From contig CAZDDU010000001.1 of NCBI GenBank assembly GCA_964504255.1, positions 99,512 through 163,511 on the forward strand: a DNA stretch of 64,000 nt, written 5' to 3'. Both the position numbers and the translations under genes were made by a program. The stretch is from an uncultured Candidatus Saccharibacteria bacterium (GTDB lineage: Bacteria; Patescibacteriota; Minisyncoccia; Phycocordibacterales; Zambryskibacteraceae). Of this stretch, positions 2,468 through 62,785 are shown in pieces. Positions within the stretch are counted from its first letter, which is position 1. Each line of letters opens with the position of its first letter. Below the pieces are notes generated by a model. That model was not told the DNA's origin and made no database searches. It saw nothing but the letters and a program-made list of their open reading frames with translations.

Positions 2468-3067
2468 ATGTTACACACCGTTATATTTATAGGGCGTAGT
2501 GGTTGTGGTAAGGGGACTCAGGCAGAGCTACTTCGTAACCGCATCAAGGAGCACGATCTCAAGAAGAGGCAGATCCTCTACATCGAGACAGGCGACGGAT
2601 TTAGAGAGTTCGTTAGAGGCAAGAGTTTGTCGTCTAGGTTGTCTAAGGCTATATACGACCGGGATGCTAGGCAACCAGACTTCCTCGCCACAATGATGTG
2701 GGGCAAGATGCTTCTCGAGCAGTTGGACGAAGAGATGCACCTAGTCTTCGACGGTGTGGCTCGTTCCAAGGCCGAGGCACACATGCTCTCTACTGCTCTT
2801 TGGTTCTACGAAAGAGAGAAGCCAACGGTGATTTATATCAACGTCTCTCGTAAGTGGAGCGAGGAGAAGTTGCTCAAGCGTGGTCGTGCTGATGACGTTA
2901 ACCTGGCAAGGATAGACAAGAGACTCGACTGGTTCGACAAGGATGTTATACCCTCTATTGAGTCCTTCAGGGAAAATCCATTCTTTAGAGTGATAGAAAT
3001 CAACGGCGAGCAGAGTGTAGAGGCGGTGCATGCAGAATTAATTTCTAAATACGAATACTCAGAGTGA
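2468..3067 (+). CDS. adk: adenylate kinase
   Basis: P-loop IFIGRSGCGKGTQAELL; operon position secY-adk-map. Confidence 0.85.
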   Translation: MLHTVIFIGRSGCGKGTQAELLRNRIKEHDLKKRQILYIETGDGFREFVRGKSLSSRLSKAIYDRDARQPDFLATMMWGKMLLEQLDEEMHLVFDGVARSKAEAHMLSTALWFYEREKPTVIYINVSRKWSEEKLLKRGRADDVNLARIDKRLDWFDKDVIPSIESFRENPFFRVIEINGEQSVEAVHAELISKYEYSE

Positions 3068-5640: not shown

Positions 5641-6956
5641 AAACAAATCTAACTTGCTACGGTGGTGTAGGTACAGTCACGGGAGCGAACTTCCTCCTTG
5701 AAGTAGAGGGTGATGGGAAGTTGCTCAAGGTACTTATTGACTGTGGGCTTTTCCAAGGATTAATCGCTGAGAGTGAGGTGTCAAAAACTTTTGATTACGA
5801 TACCACTACCATCGACTTCCTCTTCATCACTCACGCGCATATTGACCATATTGGTCGCATACCTGACCTGGTTAAGGCTGGCTTTAACGGTAAGATTCTC
5901 TCTACTCGAGAGACGAAGGATATCGCACGCTTTATGTTGAAGGATCTCTCGCATATTGCGGGGGAAGGGGACGATGCTGCCGAAAAGGCTCTAAGCATGT
6001 GGGATACACTGCCTTATCACACAGCTAAGAAGTTTGATCTCGGTGGAGTAGAGGCTTTCTCACTTGAACTCTTCGATGCCGGCCACATCTTGGGCTCTGC
6101 AATGTACAAGCTCACCTTCCCCTCGGGTAAGTCGATCTTGTTTAGTGGTGACATTGGTAACTCACCCTCACCACTCCAGAGTGATGTCGAGAGGGTGAGC
6201 GATACTACCTACATTCTTATGGACTCTGTCTATGGAGACCGTAATCACCAAAGCAATGATGAGAGAGACAAGCGGTTTGCCGAGATAATAGAGGATGTTA
6301 TAGAGAGGAAGAGTACTCTCCTTATACCCGTTTTCTCTCTCGAGCGTACACAGGTAATGATTCATGAGTTAGACAAACTCTTTACTTCTAAGGGTCTTAG
6401 GAGTATTCCAGTATTCCTCGACTCACCACTCGCGATCAACATTACCGAGATTTATAGAAATCATTTCAACACTCCCGATAAAGATTTGTACTTCAACAAG
6501 CTTCAAGAGACCGCACAGGTGAGAGACTCAATTAGCATCAGTCATATCCCTGGACCCAAGATCATTATGGCTGGCTCTGGTATGTCGACTGCTGGACGCA
6601 TTGTGCATCACGAAGAGCATTATTTACCAGACCAGAATGCCACACTGCTCTTTGTCGGGTACCAAGCAGCTGGGACTCTAGGACGACTTATCCAAGACGG
6701 TGCGAAGGAGGTGAAGATCAATGACAAGTTGATTAAGGTTAATGCGAGAGTGCTGACTATTGACGGCTTCTCTGCACACGCAGACTCTGACCAGTTGGTG
6801 AAGTTCGTTGAAGCGAGCGAGAAGAGTGTGCAGAAGGTCTTCATTACTATGGGTGAACTCAAGTCCTCGATTTTCTTGGCACAAAGACTCAAGGACGAGC
6901 TCGGTGTTGAGTCTGTCATCCCAGAGAAGGGCAAGAGGTACGAACTCGACTTATAG
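5637..6956 (+). CDS. MBL-fold metallo-hydrolase, beta-CASP RNA-processing family
   Basis: HAHIDHIGRIPDL (HxHxDH), downstream D/H motifs, C-terminal GFSAHADSDQL beta-CASP motif. Confidence 0.7.
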   Translation: MKTNLTCYGGVGTVTGANFLLEVEGDGKLLKVLIDCGLFQGLIAESEVSKTFDYDTTTIDFLFITHAHIDHIGRIPDLVKAGFNGKILSTRETKDIARFMLKDLSHIAGEGDDAAEKALSMWDTLPYHTAKKFDLGGVEAFSLELFDAGHILGSAMYKLTFPSGKSILFSGDIGNSPSPLQSDVERVSDTTYILMDSVYGDRNHQSNDERDKRFAEIIEDVIERKSTLLIPVFSLERTQVMIHELDKLFTSKGLRSIPVFLDSPLAINITEIYRNHFNTPDKDLYFNKLQETAQVRDSISISHIPGPKIIMAGSGMSTAGRIVHHEEHYLPDQNATLLFVGYQAAGTLGRLIQDGAKEVKINDKLIKVNARVLTIDGFSAHADSDQLVKFVEASEKSVQKVFITMGELKSSIFLAQRLKDELGVESVIPEKGKRYELDL

Positions 6957-8777: not shown

Positions 8778-8902
8778 TCGTCGCTTTAGAATGGTCAGAA
8801 TGACAATTAAGCAGACATTTATTGGACTCGATCTGGCCTACACGGAGGTTCGGAGTCTTATGTCTGTCTTTCTTAAGAAACTAATTTAAGGAAACCAAAC
8901 AC

Positions 8903-8934
8903 AAGCCTCTGAACCACAGAGGCTTTGTTCTTTT
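8903..8934 (+). terminator. intrinsic terminator
   Basis: aagcctctg-aacca-cagaggctt hairpin followed by T-run. Confidence 0.5.
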
Positions 8935-8966
8935 ACCCCGTGTCTCACTCCCAACCAGAGGACAAG

Positions 8967-9134
8967 ATGCAGCAAGAGCTCGAAGTTGTGAAGGTCGATG
9001 TGAAGGATGGCAAGAAGATCGCCAAGATCAGGCACCAGTGTGATCCGACGACGCTCCTGACTTTGACGGAGACACACCATGGCTGGGTGGACGAACTCGG
9101 GGTGAAGTATCCACCGGACTACATCGAGGTGTAG
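8967..9134 (+). CDS. hypothetical small protein (55 aa)
   Basis: ATG at 8967 preceded by GAGGA; upstream part of ORF 8925 overlaps the terminator. Confidence 0.3.
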   Translation: MQQELEVVKVDVKDGKKIAKIRHQCDPTTLLTLTETHHGWVDELGVKYPPDYIEV

Positions 9135-9138
9135 TCTC

Positions 9139-9164
9139 AGTCCCGCGCAAAGCGGGACTTTTTC
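9139..9164 (+). terminator. intrinsic terminator
   Basis: agtcccgc-gcaaa-gcgggact hairpin + TTTTT. Confidence 0.55.
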
Positions 9165-9170
9165 TATAAG

Positions 9171-9195
9171 AAAAACCGCACCACAAGTGGTGCGG
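9171..9195 (-). terminator. intrinsic terminator (convergent partner)
   Basis: ccgcacca-caag-tggtgcgg hairpin preceded by A-run on plus strand (T-run on minus). Confidence 0.5.
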
Positions 9196-9197
9196 AC

Positions 9198-9443
9198 TTA
9201 CTTCAGGAACTTGATTCCGATTTTGATAATGATAGCGAGGAAGCTAAGAGCGCACATCACACCCGTAGTACGGTGGAAGAAGCTCTCAAGTATCGAGTCG
9301 AACATTGGTACTTGCTTGTTCTTCTTCCGCTTCGTATCATTTTTCTCCCACTGGATACAGTAGAGAAGAAGAGGGAAGAATGTCGCAAGGATCATGACGG
9401 CCCAGAGGTTGTCGAAACCAAGCACCAAGTCGAGCACACTCAC
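9198..9443 (-). CDS. hypothetical small membrane protein
   Basis: 81-aa ORF with two hydrophobic helices. Confidence 0.4.
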   Translation of the reverse strand: MSVLDLVLGFDNLWAVMILATFFPLLLYCIQWEKNDTKRKKNKQVPMFDSILESFFHRTTGVMCALSFLAIIIKIGIKFLK

Positions 9444-12200: not shown

Positions 12201-12224
12201 CACAAAACCCACCATGAAGGTGGG

Positions 12225-12303
12225 TCGTGTTATCTGGGGACTTAGTTAGTGAAAATTGGAATATGCTCCATCTTTGGATTTTTGAAGTCTCTGAGGCGAT
12301 TTT
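12225..12303. repeat. direct repeat R copy B
   Basis: hairpin cccaccatgaaggtggg + tcgtgttatctgggga + cttagttagtgaaaattggaatatgctccatctttggatttttgaagtctctgaggcgattt. Confidence 0.7.
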
Positions 12304-12317
12304 AAACAAAACAAAAG

Positions 12318-12350
12318 GAGAGCTGGTTGGGCTCTCCTAAAATCTTTTTG
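12318..12350 (-). terminator. intrinsic terminator for 12369..12650
   Basis: ggagagc-tggttg-ggctctcc hairpin with T-run on minus strand. Confidence 0.5.
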
Positions 12351-12368
12351 GACCAGAGCACTTTCATG

Positions 12369-12650
12369 CTACTCAGGCTTCGTCTTCTTGAATCGCTCGT
12401 CCTTCTCTGCGAGCCAAGTTTCAAGGGCACCGAAGAGTTCTCCGGATTTCACGCCCAGGAGTGTGTGTGGTGGAACTAAGAGAGCATCTTTAGTTCCGTA
12501 AGTCACGTGCCGCTCCTCGCAGATTGCCCTGCCGACCGCTTCAGCGCGCTCGCGGTATTCGCGGTAGAAGTCGGGGTCACTTCCGAAGAGAGTAGTTACA
12601 ACGCCCACTAGTTGAACAGCTTCTATCACATCACTCACAGTTCTTGTCAT
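12369..12650 (-). CDS. hypothetical protein (93 aa)
   Basis: Strong AAGGAG RBS and TTGACA-17-TTTTAT promoter immediately downstream of the duplicated ssrA 3' end. Confidence 0.45.
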   Translation of the reverse strand: MTRTVSDVIEAVQLVGVVTTLFGSDPDFYREYRERAEAVGRAICEERHVTYGTKDALLVPPHTLLGVKSGELFGALETWLAEKDERFKKTKPE

Positions 12651-12712
12651 GGGGGCTCCTTTGGAGATGGTTCTACCAACATAAAATCACAATCAAAAAA
12701 GTATGTCAATAG

Positions 12713-12729
12713 TGGTGGAGATGGGCGGA
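12713..12729 (-). other. 17-nt duplicate of the ssrA 3' end (att-like core)
   Basis: tggtggagatgggcgga identical to 14317-14333, same orientation as ssrA. Confidence 0.6.
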
Positions 12730-12870
12730 CGCTTAGCTATCTCACTCCTCGGAAACCCACGGTTTTCCGAATCCTTCCTCCACGGGAGACCAGAGTGTTC
12801 TCCCGACCCCTCTCCAAGGTTCGATTCCATCACTACTAGCAGATAACACAAAACTCACCATGAAGGTGGG

Positions 12871-12949
12871 TCGTGTTATCTGGGGACTTAGTTAGTGAAA
12901 ATTGGAATATGCTCCATCTTTGGATTTTTGAAGTCTCTGAGGCGATTAT
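12871..12949. repeat. direct repeat R copy C
   Basis: Identical core to copy B, preceded by the same caccatgaaggtgg hairpin. Confidence 0.7.
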
Positions 12950-12974
12950 AGGCTAACGGTGTTAATATGATTGT

Positions 12975-13235
12975 ATGAATTTTGAAAAACCAATAACACA
13001 GGAATCTAACAAGAGGGAAGTTTTTATTAATAAGCTTCGTGAAGAAGTGGGTAGGCTAGTGGAAGCAGGAAGACTTACTCAAGAGCAAGCAGATGAGAAG
13101 ATTGCTAACGCAGAAAAGATTGAGGAGGGTCTTTCTGAAACTCCTGAAGTAGACGCAGAGATATTCGCAATTGCTGGAATATCTACGGAGGCAGAAATGA
13201 TTCAATTGTTAGGAAAAAGAAAAACTGACATTTAG
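12975..13235 (+). CDS. hypothetical protein (86 aa)
   Basis: Coiled-coil-like acidic protein; immediately downstream of repeat C. Confidence 0.4.
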   Translation: MNFEKPITQESNKREVFINKLREEVGRLVEAGRLTQEQADEKIANAEKIEEGLSETPEVDAEIFAIAGISTEAEMIQLLGKRKTDI

Positions 13236-13243
13236 TCAGTCTT

Positions 13244-13320
13244 CTTATTTTGGTGGACTTAGTTAGCGAAAATTGGAATATGCTCCATCTATGGGTTTTC
13301 GAAGCCTCTGAGGCGATTTT
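13244..13320. repeat. direct repeat R copy D
   Basis: cttattttggtgga + core nearly identical to copy A (single T/C difference). Confidence 0.7.
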
Positions 13321-13377
13321 CAAAAATGGCTCTAAATAGGGGTTTTGAACTACCTTTGTTTCAGTGCAGGGTATCTA

Positions 13378-13406
13378 TTGACAGACAGCTCTTACTATGC
13401 TATACT
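13378..13406 (+). promoter_or_regulatory. sigma70-type promoter candidate
   Basis: TTGACA-17 nt-TATACT upstream of ORF 13546. Confidence 0.45.
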
Positions 13407-13545
13407 TATTAGGTAAAGTAAGTTCTTTGAAAGATGTCATCCTGTTGAGTTTGGAAGAAGGGACGTAATTGACTTGCTGGCGAAACAGCTAAGCCGATTA
13501 TAGATTTTCTTCCAAACTCAACTCAACCCACAGGAGAAGCATACA

Positions 13546-14316: not shown

Positions 14317-14711
14317 TTTGGTGGAGATGGGCGGAATCGAACCGCCGTGCAAAGATGAATCAGAGTGAGGTCTACATGAGGTAGACTGCTTCATTTGGTT
14401 TCAAACATTAAGATACAAAACAGACGAAAGCTCTTAATGCTCTATCCTCGAGTGTTAGAAGGAGAGTGAGGAGGCTCTACTTCGAGTCCAAAGTATTCCA
14501 CAACTTTCAAGCCCTTGGACAAAGCTTGAGGTCATGCGCACATGCGAGCTTACGCTCTAGCGTATGCGAACTGGAAGTCCTTCATACCGAAGTATGGAGA
14601 AATCCTAGCAAAAGAATCTTTTGCAGTTGAGTTTTGAGAGGGATTTAAGAGTCCTCTCGGCTCTCTCACGCGTCACTCTGATGGTCGTCCTTGTCTAGGC
14701 CGATCATCCCC
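14317..14711 (-). ncRNA. ssrA: transfer-messenger RNA (tmRNA)
   Basis: 5' GGGGAUGAUCGGCCUAGACAAGGACG; 3' GGCGGUUCGAUUCCGCCCAUCUCCACCA; acceptor stem with G3-U70 wobble; sits directly downstream of smpB; ~395 nt. Confidence 0.75.
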
Positions 14712-28544: not shown

Positions 28545-28629
28545 TAGATTATTTCACATTCTTTGACTTGACCAAAGCTCTCTAGTATTAGAGGATTCTC
28601 CTAGACAGAACCTAAATTCCGGAGGAGAG

Positions 28630-28938
28630 ATGAAGAAACCGAAGTTCCTTAGGAAGAGGTATGCCGACTTTTCGCTAGGGGAGTTAGGTCTTTGCTTGGG
28701 GGCACTCTGTGTTGTTACGCAGACTCTATATGTGCTTCTGAGTCTTGTGGCAGATAGCAAGTTTGTTTTTCATCCGGTTGTGTACTGGGTCTTGGCAATT
28801 GTAGGGTATCTGATCTTCATCGTTCTCGGAGTCTTGACCTTGGTCTTTGGATTTGGAGTCATACTTCGAATCATGGATCGAAGGGAGATTAAGAAACTAA
28901 TCAAAGAATGTAACGAAGAGGAAAAGGTGCATAGATAA
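28630..28938 (+). CDS. hypothetical membrane protein
   Basis: Two TM helices; followed by terminator aagcgcgacc-ccac-ggtcgcgctttttc at 28942-28968. Confidence 0.4.
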   Translation: MKKPKFLRKRYADFSLGELGLCLGALCVVTQTLYVLLSLVADSKFVFHPVVYWVLAIVGYLIFIVLGVLTLVFGFGVILRIMDRREIKKLIKECNEEEKVHR

Positions 28939-28992
28939 TTAAGCGCGACCCCACGTCGCGCTTTTTCTTACCTAGGAGAGGTCTAGGGAAAG

Positions 28993-30975: not shown

Positions 30976-30980
30976 TATAG

Positions 30981-31069
30981 CGGAGACGGGGAGATTCGAA
31001 CTCCCGAGGCCTTTTAAAGGGCCTGCCTCTTTAGCAAAGAGGTACGTTAGACCACTCTGACACGTCTCC
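30981..31069 (-). tRNA. tRNA-Ser (GCU), type II
   Basis: GGAGACG acceptor, CCTCT-TTGCTAA-AGAGG anticodon arm, long variable arm, TTCGAAT T-loop, G73. Confidence 0.75.
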
Positions 31070-31214: not shown

Positions 31215-31301
31215 GGAGAGATGGATGAGTGGTTTAAATCAACAGTTTACTAAACTGTCGTTCCTTAATTGGAACCGCGAGTTCGAATCTCGCTCTCTCC
31301 G
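31215..31301 (+). tRNA. type II tRNA, Ser-like (G73), anticodon reads ACU by my fold
   Basis: GGAGAGA/TCTCTCC acceptor, 3-bp D-stem, ACAGT-TTACTAA-ACTGT anticodon arm, 18-nt variable arm, GCGAG-TTCGAAT-CTCGC T-arm. Confidence 0.55.
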
Positions 31302-31325
31302 CATGTGTGCCTCTATAATAGAGAG

Positions 31326-54231: not shown

Positions 54232-54323
54232 GAGTAAGTTGATACCTGAAACAAAAACTGCCTTAGGGGCAGTTTTTGTTTGCATCAAATAGAGTACCTT
54301 CCGAAAGTTTAAATGATCTAGTT

Positions 54324-54623
54324 TTAAAGCTTGTTGGCTTCCTCCGTTAACTTCTCAAAAAGTTCATCATCATTCTCTTGCCATGCTTGTTCTGCCGCAT
54401 CTATCAAAGCTTCTTTGGCTAGTTTATTTAGACCAGCTTCTTTGTACATATAAGCCACTTCGACATTGAGCATCATGCCTTGTTGACTGGTTTCGATCTC
54501 AAGTTGTCTTCGATCAAGAAACTCATTCAATAATGATAAATCTTCTGTTCCGAGCTTAAGAGACTCGATCACTCTTGCTTTGAGGGATTCTATATCTTCC
54601 TGATTTGGCGCTCCTTCAAACAT
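54324..54623 (-). CDS. hypothetical acidic protein
   Basis: 99-aa ORF. Confidence 0.35.
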   Translation of the reverse strand: MFEGAPNQEDIESLKARVIESLKLGTEDLSLLNEFLDRRQLEIETSQQGMMLNVEVAYMYKEAGLNKLAKEALIDAAEQAWQENDDELFEKLTEEANKL

Positions 54624-54666
54624 GACTCAAGTATATACCTTTGCACAGGCTAGACTAGCCCGTAGG

Positions 54667-57056: not shown

Positions 57057-57416
57057 ATGTCCAATTCACAAAAGGCTGTTTGGGTATTGCGTATCGCTGT
57101 CGCAGGAGAGTTCTTGGGTCATGCGGTGTTCGCTCTACAAGGTAAGGCAGACTGGGTTAAGTGGTTTGCCAAATTTGGAGTAAGTGACCCAGCGACTGCA
57201 ACGACTCTTCTTATGCTAGTGGGTATTATGGATCTTATTGTCGCGCTAGTCGTCTTGGTTAAGCCGATGAAGCCAATACTTCTCTGGGCTGTGTTCTGGG
57301 GCTTCTGGACTGCACTTGTCCGACCAATTGTAGGCATGCCTATTTGGGACTTTATCGAAAGATTTGCTAATTGGGGAGCACCTCTCGCTCTGTACTACTT
57401 GATCAAAAAGGAGTAA
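57057..57416 (+). CDS. hypothetical integral membrane protein
   Basis: 3-4 TM helices. Confidence 0.45.
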   Translation: MSNSQKAVWVLRIAVAGEFLGHAVFALQGKADWVKWFAKFGVSDPATATTLLMLVGIMDLIVALVVLVKPMKPILLWAVFWGFWTALVRPIVGMPIWDFIERFANWGAPLALYYLIKKE

Positions 57417-57428
57417 AGTTTTTTCCAT

Positions 57429-58088
57429 ATGTGGAAGCAGTTAACATCACTAGTACTCTTGGTATTAGTGTTTACGGTCGTGGCTGGTGTGGCTTGGTTT
57501 GTTGATTACTACAAGCCAACCAATTCCTATGATCCAGTGATTATTGGCGGTGTTTTTCCAACCAAGGAGCCAGAAGAAGGTCGGATTACTCTCAGAGTCG
57601 GTGAGACTGGGGTGTTTAGGAACATCTCTATCAAGCCAACAGAGGTAGTAGAGGATAGCCGTTGCCCAGTGAATGTGAATTGTATCTGGGCGGGAACTCT
57701 TAAGGTTAAGCTTGATGTACTCTCGGGCCTTGGTGCTTCCAATCCTACAATTGAGCTGGGCGGTTTAATCACCACAGAAGCCGAGGAGATAAAACTAATT
57801 TCTGTATCACCTGAGAAGATGCGGGAGGAGACTCTGCCGAGTGACTATGAATTTGTTTTCGAAGTATCTAAGAGGGGTCAGACTCCTATAGGAGCTAGAG
57901 GCTGCTTCGTGGGTGGGTGTTCTGGTCAGATTTGCTCGGATAGTCCTGACATGGCTTCTACTTGTGAGTTTAGAGCTGAGTATGCCTGCTATAAGACATC
58001 TAAGTGCGAGAGACAGACAAGTGGACAGTGTGGATGGACTGATACAAGTGAACTGAGGATGTGTCTCAATAATCCTCCCGCACTTTAA
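57429..58088 (+). CDS. hypothetical secreted Cys-rich protein
   Basis: N-terminal TM/signal; 12 Cys in C-terminal half. Confidence 0.45.
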   Translation: MWKQLTSLVLLVLVFTVVAGVAWFVDYYKPTNSYDPVIIGGVFPTKEPEEGRITLRVGETGVFRNISIKPTEVVEDSRCPVNVNCIWAGTLKVKLDVLSGLGASNPTIELGGLITTEAEEIKLISVSPEKMREETLPSDYEFVFEVSKRGQTPIGARGCFVGGCSGQICSDSPDMASTCEFRAEYACYKTSKCERQTSGQCGWTDTSELRMCLNNPPAL

Positions 58089-58127
58089 AAAGTACTCGAT
58101 TTGTAATACTATAATGGCCTGTTTCGT

Positions 58128-58203
58128 GCCAAGATAGCTCAGTTGGTAGAGCACTTCCATGGTAAGGAAGAGGTCCCCGGTTCGATCCCGGGTCTTGGCT
58201 CCA
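58128..58203 (+). tRNA. tRNA-Thr (GGU), CCA encoded
   Basis: GCCAAGA/TCTTGGC acceptor, CTTCC-ATGGTAA-GGAAG. Confidence 0.8.
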
Positions 58204-58223: not shown

Positions 58224-58296
58224 GCCAAAGTAGCTCAGTTGGTAGAGCGGCAGTATCGTAAACTGCAGGTCGTGAGTTCGATCCTCACCTTTGGCT
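58224..58296 (+). tRNA. tRNA-Thr (CGU)
   Basis: GCCAAAG/CTTTGGC acceptor, GCAGT-ATCGTAA-ACTGC. Confidence 0.8.
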
Positions 58297-58299
58297 CAT

Positions 58300-58790
58300 T
58301 TGTTTATGCTTAATCTCTGATATAGAATCAGTTGGCACTCAAGGCAACCAATGCGAGCCACCGCATAAATAGAGCATGCTACAAGGTTTTTGCTCTAGTC
58401 GCGGGATTAGATACCCTGCGAGCAATCCTCGGTTGACCTTATGCTTAGGGTGAAAATCCCGCAATAGGCGAAACGGGTGTTAAACACAAATCCTGGAGTT
58501 GAGAGCAGTCAGCGTAGATATGTCGGGGTAGTTTAAGCCTTGAGCTTACGACAACCTGACTTATTACGAGGATTGTGATCGACGATAGGTGCAGATGATG
58601 CCTGATATACGTAGTGTGGCTAGACGCGTGTATCGAGCCGGGTGCCTCACTGGTGAGGTCCGGGATTTAGATCATCTGGCTCTATCCCTGTGCTCGGGGA
58701 ATGTCGGCCCCAGATGCACGAAAGGGAAATACGGCACTGGCCAAGCGGAGAGATACTTCTCCCTTGGCCTTTCCCTTTTGGTATACTTCT
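58300..58790 (+). ncRNA. candidate structured ncRNA (identity unresolved: SRP RNA or RNase P RNA are testable hypotheses)
   Basis: ~490 bp with no convincing ORF between tRNA-Thr and prfB; nested helices GCGGGAU...AUCCCGC and CATCTGG...CCAGATG; motifs GGGUGAAA, GACGCGUGU, AGGUCCGGGAU. Confidence 0.3.
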
Positions 58791-58795
58791 AATAC

Positions 58796-59674
58796 ATGGC
58801 AAGTAAGGACGAAATACAGAAGAAAATTGAAGCGATTGAGGAGCGGATGCAAGCTCCGGACTTTTGGTCTGACAAGGACTCGGCTCAAGGCGCTATCAAA
58901 GAACTGGAGAATTTGAGGAACGAGCTCGAAGGAGTTGGTAAGTACGATAAGGGAGATGCTGTGATGACAATATTTAGTGGCGCTGGGGGAGATGATGCAG
59001 AGGACTTCACCAACATCTTACTCCAAATGTATTTAAAGTATTTTGATAATAAGGGATGGAGTTACTCTGTGATGCACAAGAATGATAATGACCATGGGGG
59101 ATATAGAAACATCACTCTTGAGATAAACGGTAAGGGAGTGTATGGCACTCTGAAGAACGAATCAGGGGTTCACCGACTGGTACGCATCTCTCCCTTCAAT
59201 GCGAAGAAGTTACGACACACATCCTTCTCTATGGTTGAGGTGATACCTAAGTTTGAGAAAGTGGGTGAGGTTAGCATACCGCCTGAAGATATTCGGCTTG
59301 AGTATTCGAAGTCGTCTGGTCCAGGAGGACAGAATGTGAACAAGCGTGAGACTGCGGTGCGTGTAGTGCATATACCAACAAATCTTGCAGTGCATGTAGA
59401 AAGTGAGAGAAGTCAGGCACAGAACAAGGAGAGAGCTCTCGCTATGCTCGAAGCTAAGCTCTATAAACTACAAGACGAAGAGAGGAAGGCGAAAGAGAAA
59501 GGAATGTATGTCTCTAAAACAACAAGTATCGAGTGGGGGAGCCAAATACGATCTTATGTCCTGCATCCATACAAGATGGTTAAGGATCATAGAACAGATG
59601 TAGAAGTACGAGATGTAGATAAGGTGTTGAATGGAGATCTCGACGAATTTATCGAAGCTGAAAGAGGTTTGTAG
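58796..59674 (+). CDS. prfB: peptide chain release factor 2 (short, 292 aa, no programmed frameshift)
   Basis: SPF tripeptide (RF2-specific) and GGQ motif SGPGGQNVNK. Confidence 0.8.
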   Translation: MASKDEIQKKIEAIEERMQAPDFWSDKDSAQGAIKELENLRNELEGVGKYDKGDAVMTIFSGAGGDDAEDFTNILLQMYLKYFDNKGWSYSVMHKNDNDHGGYRNITLEINGKGVYGTLKNESGVHRLVRISPFNAKKLRHTSFSMVEVIPKFEKVGEVSIPPEDIRLEYSKSSGPGGQNVNKRETAVRVVHIPTNLAVHVESERSQAQNKERALAMLEAKLYKLQDEERKAKEKGMYVSKTTSIEWGSQIRSYVLHPYKMVKDHRTDVEVRDVDKVLNGDLDEFIEAERGL

Positions 59675-62268: not shown

Positions 62269-62329
62269 GCAATACAAGGAGGTAGGGGTGTCATGTGTTA
62301 CCCAGATCTAGGCGGGTTATAATTGGGTT

Positions 62330-62626
62330 ATGCGAATAATTAAGGAACATTTAGGCTGTTTGAATGATAATCCAGAGAAACTATGGTTCAAGCGGAAGCT
62401 CTATGGTTGGGGATGGACACCCGCACGTCCACAAGGGTGGTTGGTAATACTCGTTTACATTCTCTTGATCATACCCTTCTCACTAAACATAAGTGAGAGC
62501 TCTACTCGAAGTGAAGTAATCCTTAACTTCTTCTTACCCATCTTGATACTGACATCAGTCTTGATACTTATTTGTTATAAAAAAGGGGAGGCTCCTCGTT
62601 GGCAGTGGGGAGATCCTAATAAATAG
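62330..62626 (+). CDS. hypothetical membrane protein
   Basis: 2 TM helices. Confidence 0.4.
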   Translation: MRIIKEHLGCLNDNPEKLWFKRKLYGWGWTPARPQGWLVILVYILLIIPFSLNISESSTRSEVILNFFLPILILTSVLILICYKKGEAPRWQWGDPNK

Positions 62627-62785
62627 GATTGTATTTACCCAAACAAGGGGAGGGCTTGTCAGGCTGGGGTATAATTAAATTATGCTACTTAAACTTTATG
62701 CCATAACTTTGCCAGTGCTTTTGGTTATGGACTTTGTATGGCCAAGATTCATTGATAGAGGATTTTATCAGGAGAATATCTGATT

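What the first reader, a model, noticed from the sequence alone, without database searches (positions are those of the whole stretch)
58300..58790. ~490-bp ORF-free structured region between tRNA-Thr and prfB: likely ncRNA
No ORF longer than 67 aa lies in this stretch, and none has protein-like composition. It contains nested complementary segments: GCGGGAU (58399-58405) with AUCCCGC (58453-58459), CATCTGG with CCAGATG, and gagca…tgctc. It also contains motifs reminiscent of known RNAs: GGGUGAAA (RNase P CR-II-like); GACGCGUGU…CCGGG…AGGUCCGGGAUUUAGAUCAUCUGGC, which resembles SRP RNA domain-IV sequences. A 490-bp leader for prfB would be unusual.
Basis: partly seen in the sequence, partly recalled or inferred. 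Interest (0 to 1): 0.6.

Follow-up and report, generated by a model that had tools for sequence, protein, structure and literature searches.

The report
Swappable structured RNA cassette before prfB
The 498 bases between a threonine tRNA gene and the release-factor-2 gene of this tiny (Parcubacteria/CPR) bacterium do not code for protein; they most likely encode a strongly folded RNA of an undescribed kind that is present, absent or replaced by a different version in closely related species, and it is not RNase P RNA, SRP RNA or a long leader of prfB.

Summary
The ORF-free stretch 58298-58795 is real. It folds far better than shuffled sequence on the + strand (z -5.96). No Rfam family matches it, even at E<=10.

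The organism is a Paceibacteria (CPR) bacterium. In many relatives tRNA-Thr(CGU) abuts the prfB ATG directly. This lineage has an insert there, in four versions that cannot be aligned over most of their length (498, 479, 424 and 338 nt). Sister lineages lack it.

The versions share these features:
- a hairpin whose 9-nt loop AUUAGAUAC equals the 16S rRNA 790 loop, with covarying stems (in three of the four);
- short motifs in a fixed order;
- a strong terminator-like hairpin with compensatory changes;
- an extended -10 box (TGGTATACT) 8 nt before the ATG, which implies a leaderless prfB.

Within one version the RNA body is about 99.6% identical, while the flanking genes are only 92-95% identical.

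Best reading: an accessory structured-RNA gene cassette of unknown function, exchanged between species, ending in a terminator followed by prfB's own promoter. RNase P, SRP and "490-nt prfB leader" are not supported. Expression has not been tested.

The parts
58110..58115 (+). TATAAT box 12 nt upstream of tRNA-Thr(GGU): probable promoter of the tRNA pair, and possibly of the RNA downstream
   Evidence: Read from the sequence. Inferred; the simple sigma-70 scan, which needs both hexamers, found nothing.
58128..58203 (+). tRNA-Thr(GGU)
   Evidence: ARAGORN; Rfam tRNA, 68 bits.
58224..58297 (+). tRNA-Thr(CGU). Its 3' end is the left border of the insert. In relatives without the insert, its discriminator A is the A of the prfB ATG.
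   Evidence: Junction GGCTCATGG in L087, L177 and L182.
58298..58337 (+). Poorly conserved U-rich spacer with a -10-like TAGAAT (58323-58328): the tRNA trailer and/or the RNA's own promoter
   Evidence: In the L179/L180 pair the first 50 nt of the insert are only 82% identical, against 99.6% for the rest. A -10-like box sits in the same alignment columns in all four variants. The promoter role is inferred.
58338..58721 (+). Body of the structured RNA (5' end approximate)
   Evidence: MFE -185.8 kcal/mol, z -5.96 for 58298-58795. Local z of -2.1 to -4.2 on the + strand. No Rfam match. No conserved ORF.
58399..58421 (+). Hairpin (a): a 7-bp stem UCGCGGG/CCUGCGA and the 9-nt loop AUUAGAUAC (58406-58414). 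The loop matches the sequence and size of the 16S rRNA helix-24 '790 loop'.
   Evidence: Folds on its own at -10.4 kcal/mol. The same loop sits on different stems in L085 (ACCCGG/CCUGGGU, loop AUUAGACAC) and in L178 (10 bp). The motif occurs nowhere else in 170 related loci. Identity to the 16S 790 loop rests on my own knowledge of E. coli 16S positions 787-795.
58448..58460 (+). Hairpin (b): GGG-UGAAAAU-CCC (T-loop-like 7-nt loop).
   Evidence: UGARAAY loops closed by G-C also occur in L085 and L178, but at different relative positions.
58486..58494 (+). Motif (c): ACAAAUCCU, shared by all four variants (ACARAUCCY / CCAAAUCCC). Complementary to GGAUU of hairpin (a).
   Evidence: Shared k-mers and order. 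The pairing with (a) is an inference from inspection.
58491..58588 (+). Long irregular hairpin domain; the most negative local z
   Evidence: MFE and centroid agree. z -4.17 for 58450-58599.
58673..58716 (+). CAUCUGG/CCAGAUG helix enclosing motif (d): CCCU-loop-GGGG (58686-58699) followed by AAUGUCGGCCCC
   Evidence: Motif (d) is recognisable in W, L085 and L179 (AUCCC-loop-GGG-UAKRYCGGCCC).
58722..58777 (+). Terminator-like hairpin: outer AAGGGAAA/UUUCCCUU, a 9-nt bulge, inner GGCCAAG-GGAGAG/UUCUCC-CUUGGCC. Followed by UUGG.
   Evidence: -28.4 kcal/mol, z -3.9. Compensatory changes in L179 (GGCCGUGGGAGAG...CUCUCCCACGGCC, -33.7 kcal/mol). A different GC-rich hairpin in the same place in L178 (-21.7 kcal/mol). 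The simple terminator scan missed it because the U run is interrupted.
58779..58787 (+). Extended -10 box TGGTATACT (hexamer TATACT 58782-58787), 8 nt before the prfB ATG: promoter for a leaderless prfB mRNA
   Evidence: Conserved in all four variants (TGATATACT, TGATAGAAT). A TAnAnT box ends 4-11 nt before the prfB start in 31 of 58 related loci, against 5 of 58 in a control. The same arrangement occurs at 19 of 65 long ORFs in the window. The function is inferred.
58796..59674 (+). prfB (release factor 2, 292 aa, no frameshift site), followed by ftsE and ftsX
   Evidence: Pfam PCRF and RF-1 on the identical protein. SPF and GGQ motifs are visible in the translation.

Best explanation
The stretch is a non-coding cassette inserted between tRNA-Thr(CGU) and prfB. 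In many Parcubacteria those two genes touch or overlap by one base.

From left to right it holds:
- about 40 nt of loosely conserved spacer, with a -10-like box;
- a roughly 385-nt highly structured RNA, including a hairpin that copies the 16S rRNA 790 loop;
- a strong terminator-like hairpin;
- an extended -10 promoter placed so that prfB is transcribed as a leaderless mRNA.

The RNA is most likely made either with the two tRNAs or from its own promoter, and it ends at the terminator. That makes it a stand-alone accessory ncRNA, not a prfB leader. Its function is unknown.

The cassette behaves as an exchangeable allele. Four mutually unalignable versions occupy the same site in one genus-level clade, and sister lineages lack it. 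It is probably swapped by recombination through the conserved flanks: the tRNA on the left, and the terminator, promoter and first 30-44 nt of prfB on the right.

Shown: non-coding status, structure, patchy distribution, shared motifs and covarying hairpins.
Inferred: transcription, termination, promoter use, and exchange by recombination.
For: Structure and coding status:
- z -5.96 on + against -2.98 on -.
- The other variants are also structured: z -5.1, -4.2 and -2.5.
- No ORF homologue and no frame conserved between variants.

Distribution:
- Same insert, 99.8-100% identical, in L081-L084 and L173-L176.
- Different inserts at the same site in L085/L086, L178 and L179-L181.
- No insert in L087, L089, L177 and L182.
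- Flank identities place carriers and non-carriers as sisters.

Shared features:
- Hairpin (a) with three different stems.
- Terminator hairpin with compensatory pairs.
- Motifs keep the order a-c-d-e.

Constraint or recent transfer:
- The L179/L180 body is 287/288 identical, against 92-95% in the flanking genes and 85% in the tRNA.
- The W/L085 3' module is 95.8% identical, against about 85% in the flanks.
- L083 keeps the W-type insert next to an L085-like prfB 5' part, so a breakpoint lies at the cassette's right edge.

Leaderless promoter.
Against: - No expression data.
- Only four independent variants, so covariation rests on a few hairpins, and no full consensus structure could be derived. 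MAFFT alignments of the bodies are poor.
- Hairpin (b) is not in a fixed position, and hairpin (a) is missing from the L179 type, so common descent of the whole bodies is not proven.
- The near-identity within a type could reflect recent transfer rather than selection on the RNA.
- The U tract after the hairpin is short, and the simple terminator scan did not call it.
- The RNA's own -10 box is weak, and in W it lacks a correctly spaced TG extension.
Confidence: 0.55

Rival explanations
1. It is a mobile or selfish structured RNA element, such as an ORF-less or degenerate group I-type intron or another ribozyme. It would have invaded the tRNA-prfB co-transcript and would spread by homing or co-conversion.
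For: - Patchy presence among sister lineages and near-identity within a type despite diverged hosts.
- The identity tract extends 30-44 nt into prfB, like a co-conversion tract.
- The neighbourhood collects selfish elements. In L085 the tRNA-Thr(GGU) gene is split after U36 by about 205 nt ending in G, consistent with a group I intron. L085 and L180 carry an HNH-endonuclease-like ORF between the tRNAs.
- CPR tRNAs with group I introns are reported (PMC8172020).
- Rfam also failed to flag the L085 tRNA insertion, so a negative Rfam result is weak evidence here.
- Short resemblances to group I J3/4 and J7/3-P3 sequences (CAAAUCC, AAUGUCGGCC), recalled from memory only.
Against: - No boundary choice that restores the ancestral junction GGCUCAUGG gives a 5' exon ending in U together with an intron ending in G (sequences).
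- I could not place P3/P7/P8 consistently in the four variants.
- The insert ends in a terminator plus a promoter for prfB, so splicing is not needed, and a terminator inside an intron would work against it.
- The first 50 nt of the insert are not part of the conserved tract.
- No Intron_gpI hit at E<=10.
Confidence: 0.13
2. It is a cis-regulatory leader (attenuator or riboswitch-like) of prfB-ftsEX. Transcription would start at the tRNA promoter or inside the insert, and the 3' hairpin would be a regulated terminator.
For: - A strong hairpin immediately upstream of prfB, conserved with compensatory changes.
- Mutually exclusive pairings: AUCAUCUG can pair with CAGAUGAU (58592-58599) or with CCAGAUG (58710-58716).
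- prfB here lacks the usual frameshift autoregulation.
Against: - An extended -10 box 6-8 nt before the ATG is conserved in all variants and in about half of 58 related loci. It predicts a leaderless mRNA that excludes the upstream RNA.
- Sister species lack the whole region.
- The supposed sensor domains cannot be aligned between species, unlike known riboswitches.
- No Rfam riboswitch, T-box or leader hit.
- No obvious antiterminator complementary to the terminator's 5' strand.
Confidence: 0.12
3. It is functionless filler: remains of past insertions, where only the terminator and the prfB promoter matter and the strong folding is incidental.
For: - The tRNA-Thr/prfB gap is highly variable across Parcubacteria. 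Among 117 loci it is 15 nt or less in 36, 151-700 nt in 36 and over 700 nt in 28.
- The bodies of the four variants do not align.
Against: - z of -4 to -6 over 340-500 nt with strand bias.
- A conserved hairpin loop on covarying stems.
- 287/288 identity of the body between genomes whose coding flanks differ by 5-8% and whose first 50 insert bases differ by 18%.
Confidence: 0.12
4. It is a highly diverged housekeeping RNA (RNase P RNA, SRP RNA or 6S RNA).
For: - CPR RNase P RNAs are so diverged that they are found only below Rfam noise cut-offs (PMC8172020).
- No RNase P, SRP or 6S gene was detected anywhere in the 64-kb window.
- GAAAAUCC is 1 mismatch from the CR-I core.
Against: - No hit at E<=10 on an 801-nt query.
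- The full CR-I and CR-V motifs are matched only at 3 mismatches, and no P4-like pairing holds in the right order; SRP domain IV motifs are not matched within 4 substitutions.
- The element is absent from this locus in sister species and is unalignable between species that are 82-85% identical in their flanks. Conserved catalytic or SRP cores would not behave this way.
Confidence: 0.03

Closest known systems
GOLLD and ROOL RNAs (large 'ornate' bacterial and phage ncRNAs of unknown function, Rfam RF01998 and RF03087)
   Same: Several hundred nucleotides long, heavily structured, non-coding, next to tRNA genes, patchily distributed, apparently horizontally moved, function unknown.
   Different: No covariance-model match to either family. 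This RNA is smaller (about 300-440 nt) and restricted, as far as sampled, to one Paceibacteria clade. It sits at one fixed chromosomal site in several unalignable versions. No phage context was seen.
Group I introns in bacterial and CPR tRNA and rRNA genes
   Same: A structured RNA insert at a tRNA gene. Patchy among close relatives and nearly identical copies in diverged hosts. A probable group I intron and an HNH endonuclease gene lie in the same neighbourhood in relatives.
   Different: It lies after the tRNA, not inside a gene. There are no U/omega-G boundaries that restore the ancestral junction, no identifiable P3-P7-P8 core and no Rfam hit. It ends with a terminator and a promoter.
rRNA-mimic operators of ribosomal-protein and translation-factor genes (for example the S15, L20 and S6:S18 leaders, and the thrS operator mimicking a tRNA anticodon arm)
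   Same: It contains a hairpin that reproduces a universally conserved rRNA loop (the 16S helix-24 790 loop, part of the 30S platform contacted by IF3, P-site tRNA and the 50S subunit). It lies upstream of a translation-factor gene.
   Different: Mimicry is limited to one 9-nt loop plus the closing pairs. No protein partner is known. The L179-type variant lacks it, and prfB appears to be leaderless, so the mimic would not be part of its mRNA.
Bacterial RNase P RNA (RF00010/RF00011), including the diverged CPR forms
   Same: Similar size, high structure, next to tRNA genes, and a GGUGAAAA-type sequence.
   Different: It fails the tests applied: CM match, CR-I/CR-V/P4, and conservation among related species.

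Membership tests
Bacterial RNase P RNA (RF00010/RF00011) | Covariance-model match | tested here: not met
   No hit at the gathering score or at E<=10 on 801 nt. Caveat: CPR RNase P RNAs can score as low as 5 bits (PMC8172020), below what this tool lists.
Bacterial RNase P RNA (RF00010/RF00011) | CR-I (GAGGAAAGUCC) near the 5' end pairing with CR-V (ACAGAA..GGCUUA) near the 3' end to form P4 | tested here: not met
   The best matches need 3 substitutions, lie at inconsistent positions in the four variants, and are adjacent or in reverse order (inspection sequences).
Bacterial RNase P RNA (RF00010/RF00011) | Essential gene: conserved and alignable among related species | tested here: not met
   Absent from this locus in L087, L089, L177 and L182. 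The bodies are unalignable between W, L085, L178 and L179, although the flanks are 76-85% identical.
Bacterial small SRP RNA (RF00169) | Covariance-model match and the domain IV motifs (GGAA tetraloop helix, symmetric and asymmetric loops) | tested here: not met
   No hit at E<=10. Neither strand of the E. coli domain IV sequence is matched within 4 substitutions.
6S RNA, T-box, riboswitches and ribosomal leaders in Rfam 15 | Covariance-model match | tested here: not met
   Also negative for the other variants.
Group I intron (RF00028) | Covariance-model match | tested here: inconclusive
   No hit. But the model also missed the probable group I intron in tRNA-Thr(GGU) of L085, so sensitivity is low here.
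Group I intron (RF00028) | 5' exon ends in U (U.G pair in P1), the intron ends in G, and excision restores the uninterrupted sequence | tested here: not met
   The four boundary choices allowed by the CAT...CAT ambiguity give introns ending in A, C, A or T (sequences).
Group I intron (RF00028) | Conserved core P3-P4-P6-P7-P8 with the P3/P7 pseudoknot and a G-binding site | tested here: inconclusive
   Manual attempts gave no assignment consistent across the four variants. No tool here predicts pseudoknots.
Group I intron (RF00028) | Self-splicing activity | not testable with these tools
   Needs an in vitro transcription and GTP assay.
GOLLD / ROOL large ncRNAs | Covariance-model match to RF01998 or RF03087 | tested here: not met
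Intrinsic terminator followed by a leaderless promoter (3' module) | A stable GC-rich hairpin followed by U residues, conserved by compensatory change | tested here: met
   -28.4, -26.9, -33.7 and -21.7 kcal/mol in the four variants. AAG/CUU in W becomes GUG/CAC in L179. The U run is short (UUUU or AUUU).
Intrinsic terminator followed by a leaderless promoter (3' module) | A -10 hexamer (TAnAnT, often TGn-extended) ending 5-9 nt before the start codon | tested here: met
   TGGTATACT ends 8 nt before the ATG. 31 of 58 related loci against 5 of 58 in the control. 19 of 65 ORFs in the window. Actual transcription starts were not tested.

The most novel reading that the evidence does not exclude
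These cassettes are a new class of horizontally exchanged, fast-diversifying large ncRNAs of CPR bacteria. Their conserved hairpin is a functional decoy of the 16S rRNA 790 loop. By binding a factor that recognises the 30S platform (for example IF3, which disfavours leaderless mRNAs, or a platform-directed toxin or modifying enzyme), the RNA would tune translation initiation in a genome rich in leaderless genes, or protect the ribosome.
Probability: 0.12. Interest if true: 0.8.

Novelty: new variant of a known kind. Interest (0 to 1): 0.55.

Why it matters
CPR/Patescibacteria have tiny genomes, so a 0.3-0.5 kb non-coding, strongly folded segment that is kept nearly invariant within a type yet swapped between related species is unlikely to be idle.

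If it is expressed, it would add a candidate new family to the short list of large bacterial ncRNAs of unknown function, this time in an uncultured phylum with almost no ncRNA annotation.

The work also shows two things of practical use for annotating these genomes:
- the tRNA-Thr(CGU)/prfB junction is a hot spot that collects structured inserts across Parcubacteria;
- prfB, and many other genes here, seem to be transcribed as leaderless mRNAs from TGnTATAMT boxes.

Tried and rejected
- Rfam at gathering and E-value thresholds on the window, the region and 18 related loci returned only tRNAs and tmRNA.
- blastn and nhmmer of the region against 170 related loci found matches only in the same species and, for the 3' 72-112 nt, in L085/L086.
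- There is no repeat of the region elsewhere in the window.
- BLAST against phage and plasmid collections found nothing.
- The 65-aa ORF that some pipelines call here has no homologue. tblastx between variants shows similarity only at the 3' end and in all frames, so it is at nucleotide level.
- Viral-contig scans for the hairpin (a) sequence gave counts that I estimate to be near chance. Two related high-GC phage contigs (L183, L187) share the 19-mer GCGGGATTAGATACCCTGC in an intergenic hairpin. That is one independent event, so chance is not excluded.
- RNase P and SRP motif searches were negative.
- Manual attempts to fit a group I core (P3/P7/P8) or a T-box or attenuator scheme gave nothing consistent across variants.
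- Duplex prediction of the RNA body against the prfB 5' region gave no excess over shuffles (z about 0); against the adjacent tRNAs only two isolated scores near z -2.4 appeared, not consistent between variants.
- A structure-aware multiple alignment could not be made. MXSCARNA is missing and MAFFT alignments of the bodies are unreliable, so no covariance model was built. Alignment A4 was not used.
- A z-score survey of the window's other non-coding gaps timed out.

Full report
**What is at the locus.**
The window carries tRNA-Thr(GGU) at 58128-58203 and tRNA-Thr(CGU) at 58224-58297. Then come 498 bases without a credible gene, then prfB at 58796-59674 (292 aa, no frameshift site), followed by ftsE and ftsX.

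- The longest start-to-stop ORF in the gap is 67 aa.
- A 65-aa version of it is called by some pipelines. It has no relative among 5.8 billion proteins except its own copies.
- Rfam 15 finds only the tRNAs here, at gathering scores and at E<=10 on an 801-nt query with relaxed filters.

**Is it structured beyond chance?**
Yes.

- The + strand folds to -185.8 kcal/mol, against -151 +/- 5.8 for dinucleotide shuffles (z -5.96). The - strand gives z -2.98.
- In 150-nt windows, the negative + strand z values (-2.1 to -4.2) lie inside 58300-58824. Most coding flanks scatter around zero; one upstream window (57400-57549) reaches -2.81.
- Some of them compete with better-supported local hairpins, as described below.

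**Whose genome, and what do relatives have here?**
prfB places the window in Parcubacteria/Paceibacteria (CPR). The best species representative is 76% identical in amino acids.

Across 117 related loci with a + strand tRNA-Thr upstream of prfB, the gap is:
- 15 nt or less in 36;
- 151-700 nt in 36;
- over 700 nt in 28.

In compact genomes the tRNA's discriminator A is the A of the prfB ATG (GGCTCATGG in L087, L177 and L182). So this junction is a hot spot for inserted DNA.

Many ORF-free inserts in other lineages are also strongly structured: L108 z -10, L027 -7.5, L012 -6.4, L026 -5.8. None hits Rfam.

**The family.**
I fetched contigs that encode close prfB relatives.

- The 498-nt insert recurs at 99.8-100% identity in strains of the same species (L081-L084, L173-L176).
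- Three other species carry a different insert at exactly the same place: L085/L086 (479 nt), L178 (424 nt) and L179-L181 (338/339 nt).
- L087, L089, L177 and L182 have none.
- Flank identities group W, L085 and L178 at 82-85%, with L182 (no insert) next at 79%.
- L179/L180 group with L087 (no insert) at 84%.
- So presence is patchy among sisters.
- The bodies do not align by blastn or nhmmer or after translation.

**What the variants share.**
- (a) A hairpin with the 9-nt loop AUUAGAUAC (AUUAGACAC in L085) on three different stems: UCGCGGG/CCUGCGA, ACCCGG/CCUGGGU and a 10-bp stem in L178. In sequence and size the loop equals the 790 loop of 16S rRNA helix 24 (my knowledge of E. coli 16S 787-795). 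The motif occurs nowhere else in 170 related loci. It is absent from the L179 type.
- (b) A small hairpin with loop UGARAAY, at varying positions.
- (c) ACARAUCCY. It is complementary to GGAUU of (a); this is an inference.
- (d) AUCCC-loop-GGG followed by UAKRYCGGCCC.
- (e) A strong 3' hairpin (-22 to -34 kcal/mol) with compensatory changes: AAG/CUU in W becomes GUG/CAC in L179.
- (f) After the hairpin, AUUUGRUAKAMU.

Motifs a, c, d and e keep the same order in every variant.

**The 3' module.**
TGGTATACT (58779-58787) is an extended -10 box ending 8 nt before the ATG.

- A TAnAnT box, mostly TGn-extended, ends 4-11 nt before the prfB start in 31 of 58 loci that have an insert. The control gives 5 of 58.
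- In the window, 19 of 65 long ORFs show the same arrangement, often with a perfect TATAAT.
- I therefore infer that prfB is transcribed as a leaderless mRNA from this box.
- The hairpin before it would then terminate whatever is transcribed upstream.
- This removes the "490-nt leader" problem.

**Constraint or transfer.**
- Between L179 and L180 the flanking genes are 92-95% identical, the tRNA 85%, and the first 50 nt of the insert 82%.
- The remaining 288 nt of the insert differ at a single position.
- The identical tract runs from -288 to +44 relative to the ATG.
- W and L085 are identical from -63 to +29 except at one base, while their flanks are about 85% identical.
- L083 combines the W-type insert with an L085-like prfB 5' segment.

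Either the RNA body is under very strong purifying selection, or each type has spread recently. In both cases the cassette and its flanks recombine independently.

**Known families tested.**
- *RNase P RNA.* There is no CM hit. CR-I and CR-V are matched only at 3 mismatches, and no P4 pairing holds in the right order. Such an RNA would not be absent or unalignable among congeners. The caveat is that CPR RNase P RNAs can score very low (PMC8172020), and none was seen elsewhere in the window.
- *SRP RNA.* No CM hit and no domain IV motif.
- *Group I intron.* The neighbourhood in L085 does hold a probable group I intron in tRNA-Thr(GGU) and an HNH-like ORF, and Rfam missed that intron too. But for this insert no boundary pair gives U|...G| while restoring the ancestral junction. 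I could not place a consistent P3/P7/P8 core, and the element ends in a terminator plus a promoter.
- *Riboswitch, T-box or leader.* No hits, and the sensor part is not conserved.

**Verdict.**

The most likely description is an accessory, exchangeable structured-RNA cassette of a so far undescribed family, with a terminator and a leaderless prfB promoter at its 3' end.

Function is unknown. The 790-loop copy is the most concrete lead.

All statements about transcription are inferences from sequence.

Noticed in passing
L087 2427-2503, L177 334-410, L182 2376-2452 (and about 36 of 117 related loci): In many Parcubacteria the tRNA-Thr(CGU) gene abuts prfB so closely that the discriminator A73 is the A of the ATG (GGCTCATGG). 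The first 17 codons vary mainly at third positions, so they look coding. Cleavage after A73 would remove the A of the start codon from the same transcript, so how prfB is expressed there is unclear.
   Followed up: partly
L085 about 1190-1435 and 1500-1930; L180 about 311-763: In L085, tRNA-Thr(GGU) is split in its anticodon loop by about 205 nt. The boundaries are compatible with ...AUGGU | ... CUCG |, which suggests a group I intron, yet Rfam does not flag it at E<=5. L085 and L180/L181 carry an HNH-endonuclease-like ORF (…DHIDGNWRNN…LICPNCD…) between the two tRNA-Thr genes.
   Followed up: partly
L082 110-183: A Logan contig joins a different tRNA-Thr(CGU) 5' part (acceptor GCCACUG) to the window's T-arm, 3' acceptor strand, insert and prfB. 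This gives two acceptor-stem mismatches and an unrelated upstream region. It is either a recombination junction inside the T arm or an assembly chimera.
   Followed up: partly
L108 981-1425; L130 2267-2452: Another lineage has a tandem duplication of a structured unit of about 215 nt (z -10) between tRNA-Thr and prfB. L130 carries a related single unit (shared GGGGU.G.G.UACUUA...GUGACC.AUUC). No Rfam match. This may be a second, unrelated structured-insert family at the same hot spot.
   Followed up: partly
L183 about 3000-3035; L187 about 6645-6680 (IMG/VR contigs from metagenome 3300037247): Two related high-GC viral contigs contain the exact 19-mer GCGGGATTAGATACCCTGC (hairpin (a), including its stem) in intergenic, hairpin-rich sequence. 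This is one independent occurrence, so chance is not excluded.
   Followed up: partly
window, e.g. 5245, 15210, 38001, 55098(-), 56504(-), 27075(-): 19 of 65 long ORFs have a TATAAT-like box, often GGTATAAT or TGnTATAAT, ending 5-9 nt before a candidate ATG, which would mean that leaderless mRNAs are common in this genome. Only 21 of 65 have an SD-like sequence.
   Followed up: partly
window 31215-31302 (+) and 30980-31069 (-): ARAGORN calls a tRNA-Ser with anticodon ACU (A34), divergent from a tRNA-Ser(GCU). An unmodified A34 serine tRNA would be unusual. The anticodon call was not checked by eye.
   Followed up: no
window 12201-13497: A 1.3-kb stretch without any ORF of 110 aa or more, next to the tmRNA gene (14319-14711). 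It has no Rfam hit at E<=10. Other gaps of about 450-550 bp lie at 8778-9272, 28545-28992, 54232-54666 and 62278-62785. The z-score survey of these gaps timed out.
   Followed up: no
window 58800-59200 against L083: The 5' third of prfB is only 82-88% identical between two genomes that are otherwise 99-100% identical. In L083 it matches the L085-type allele, so there is a recombination patch starting right at the edge of the insert.
   Followed up: partly
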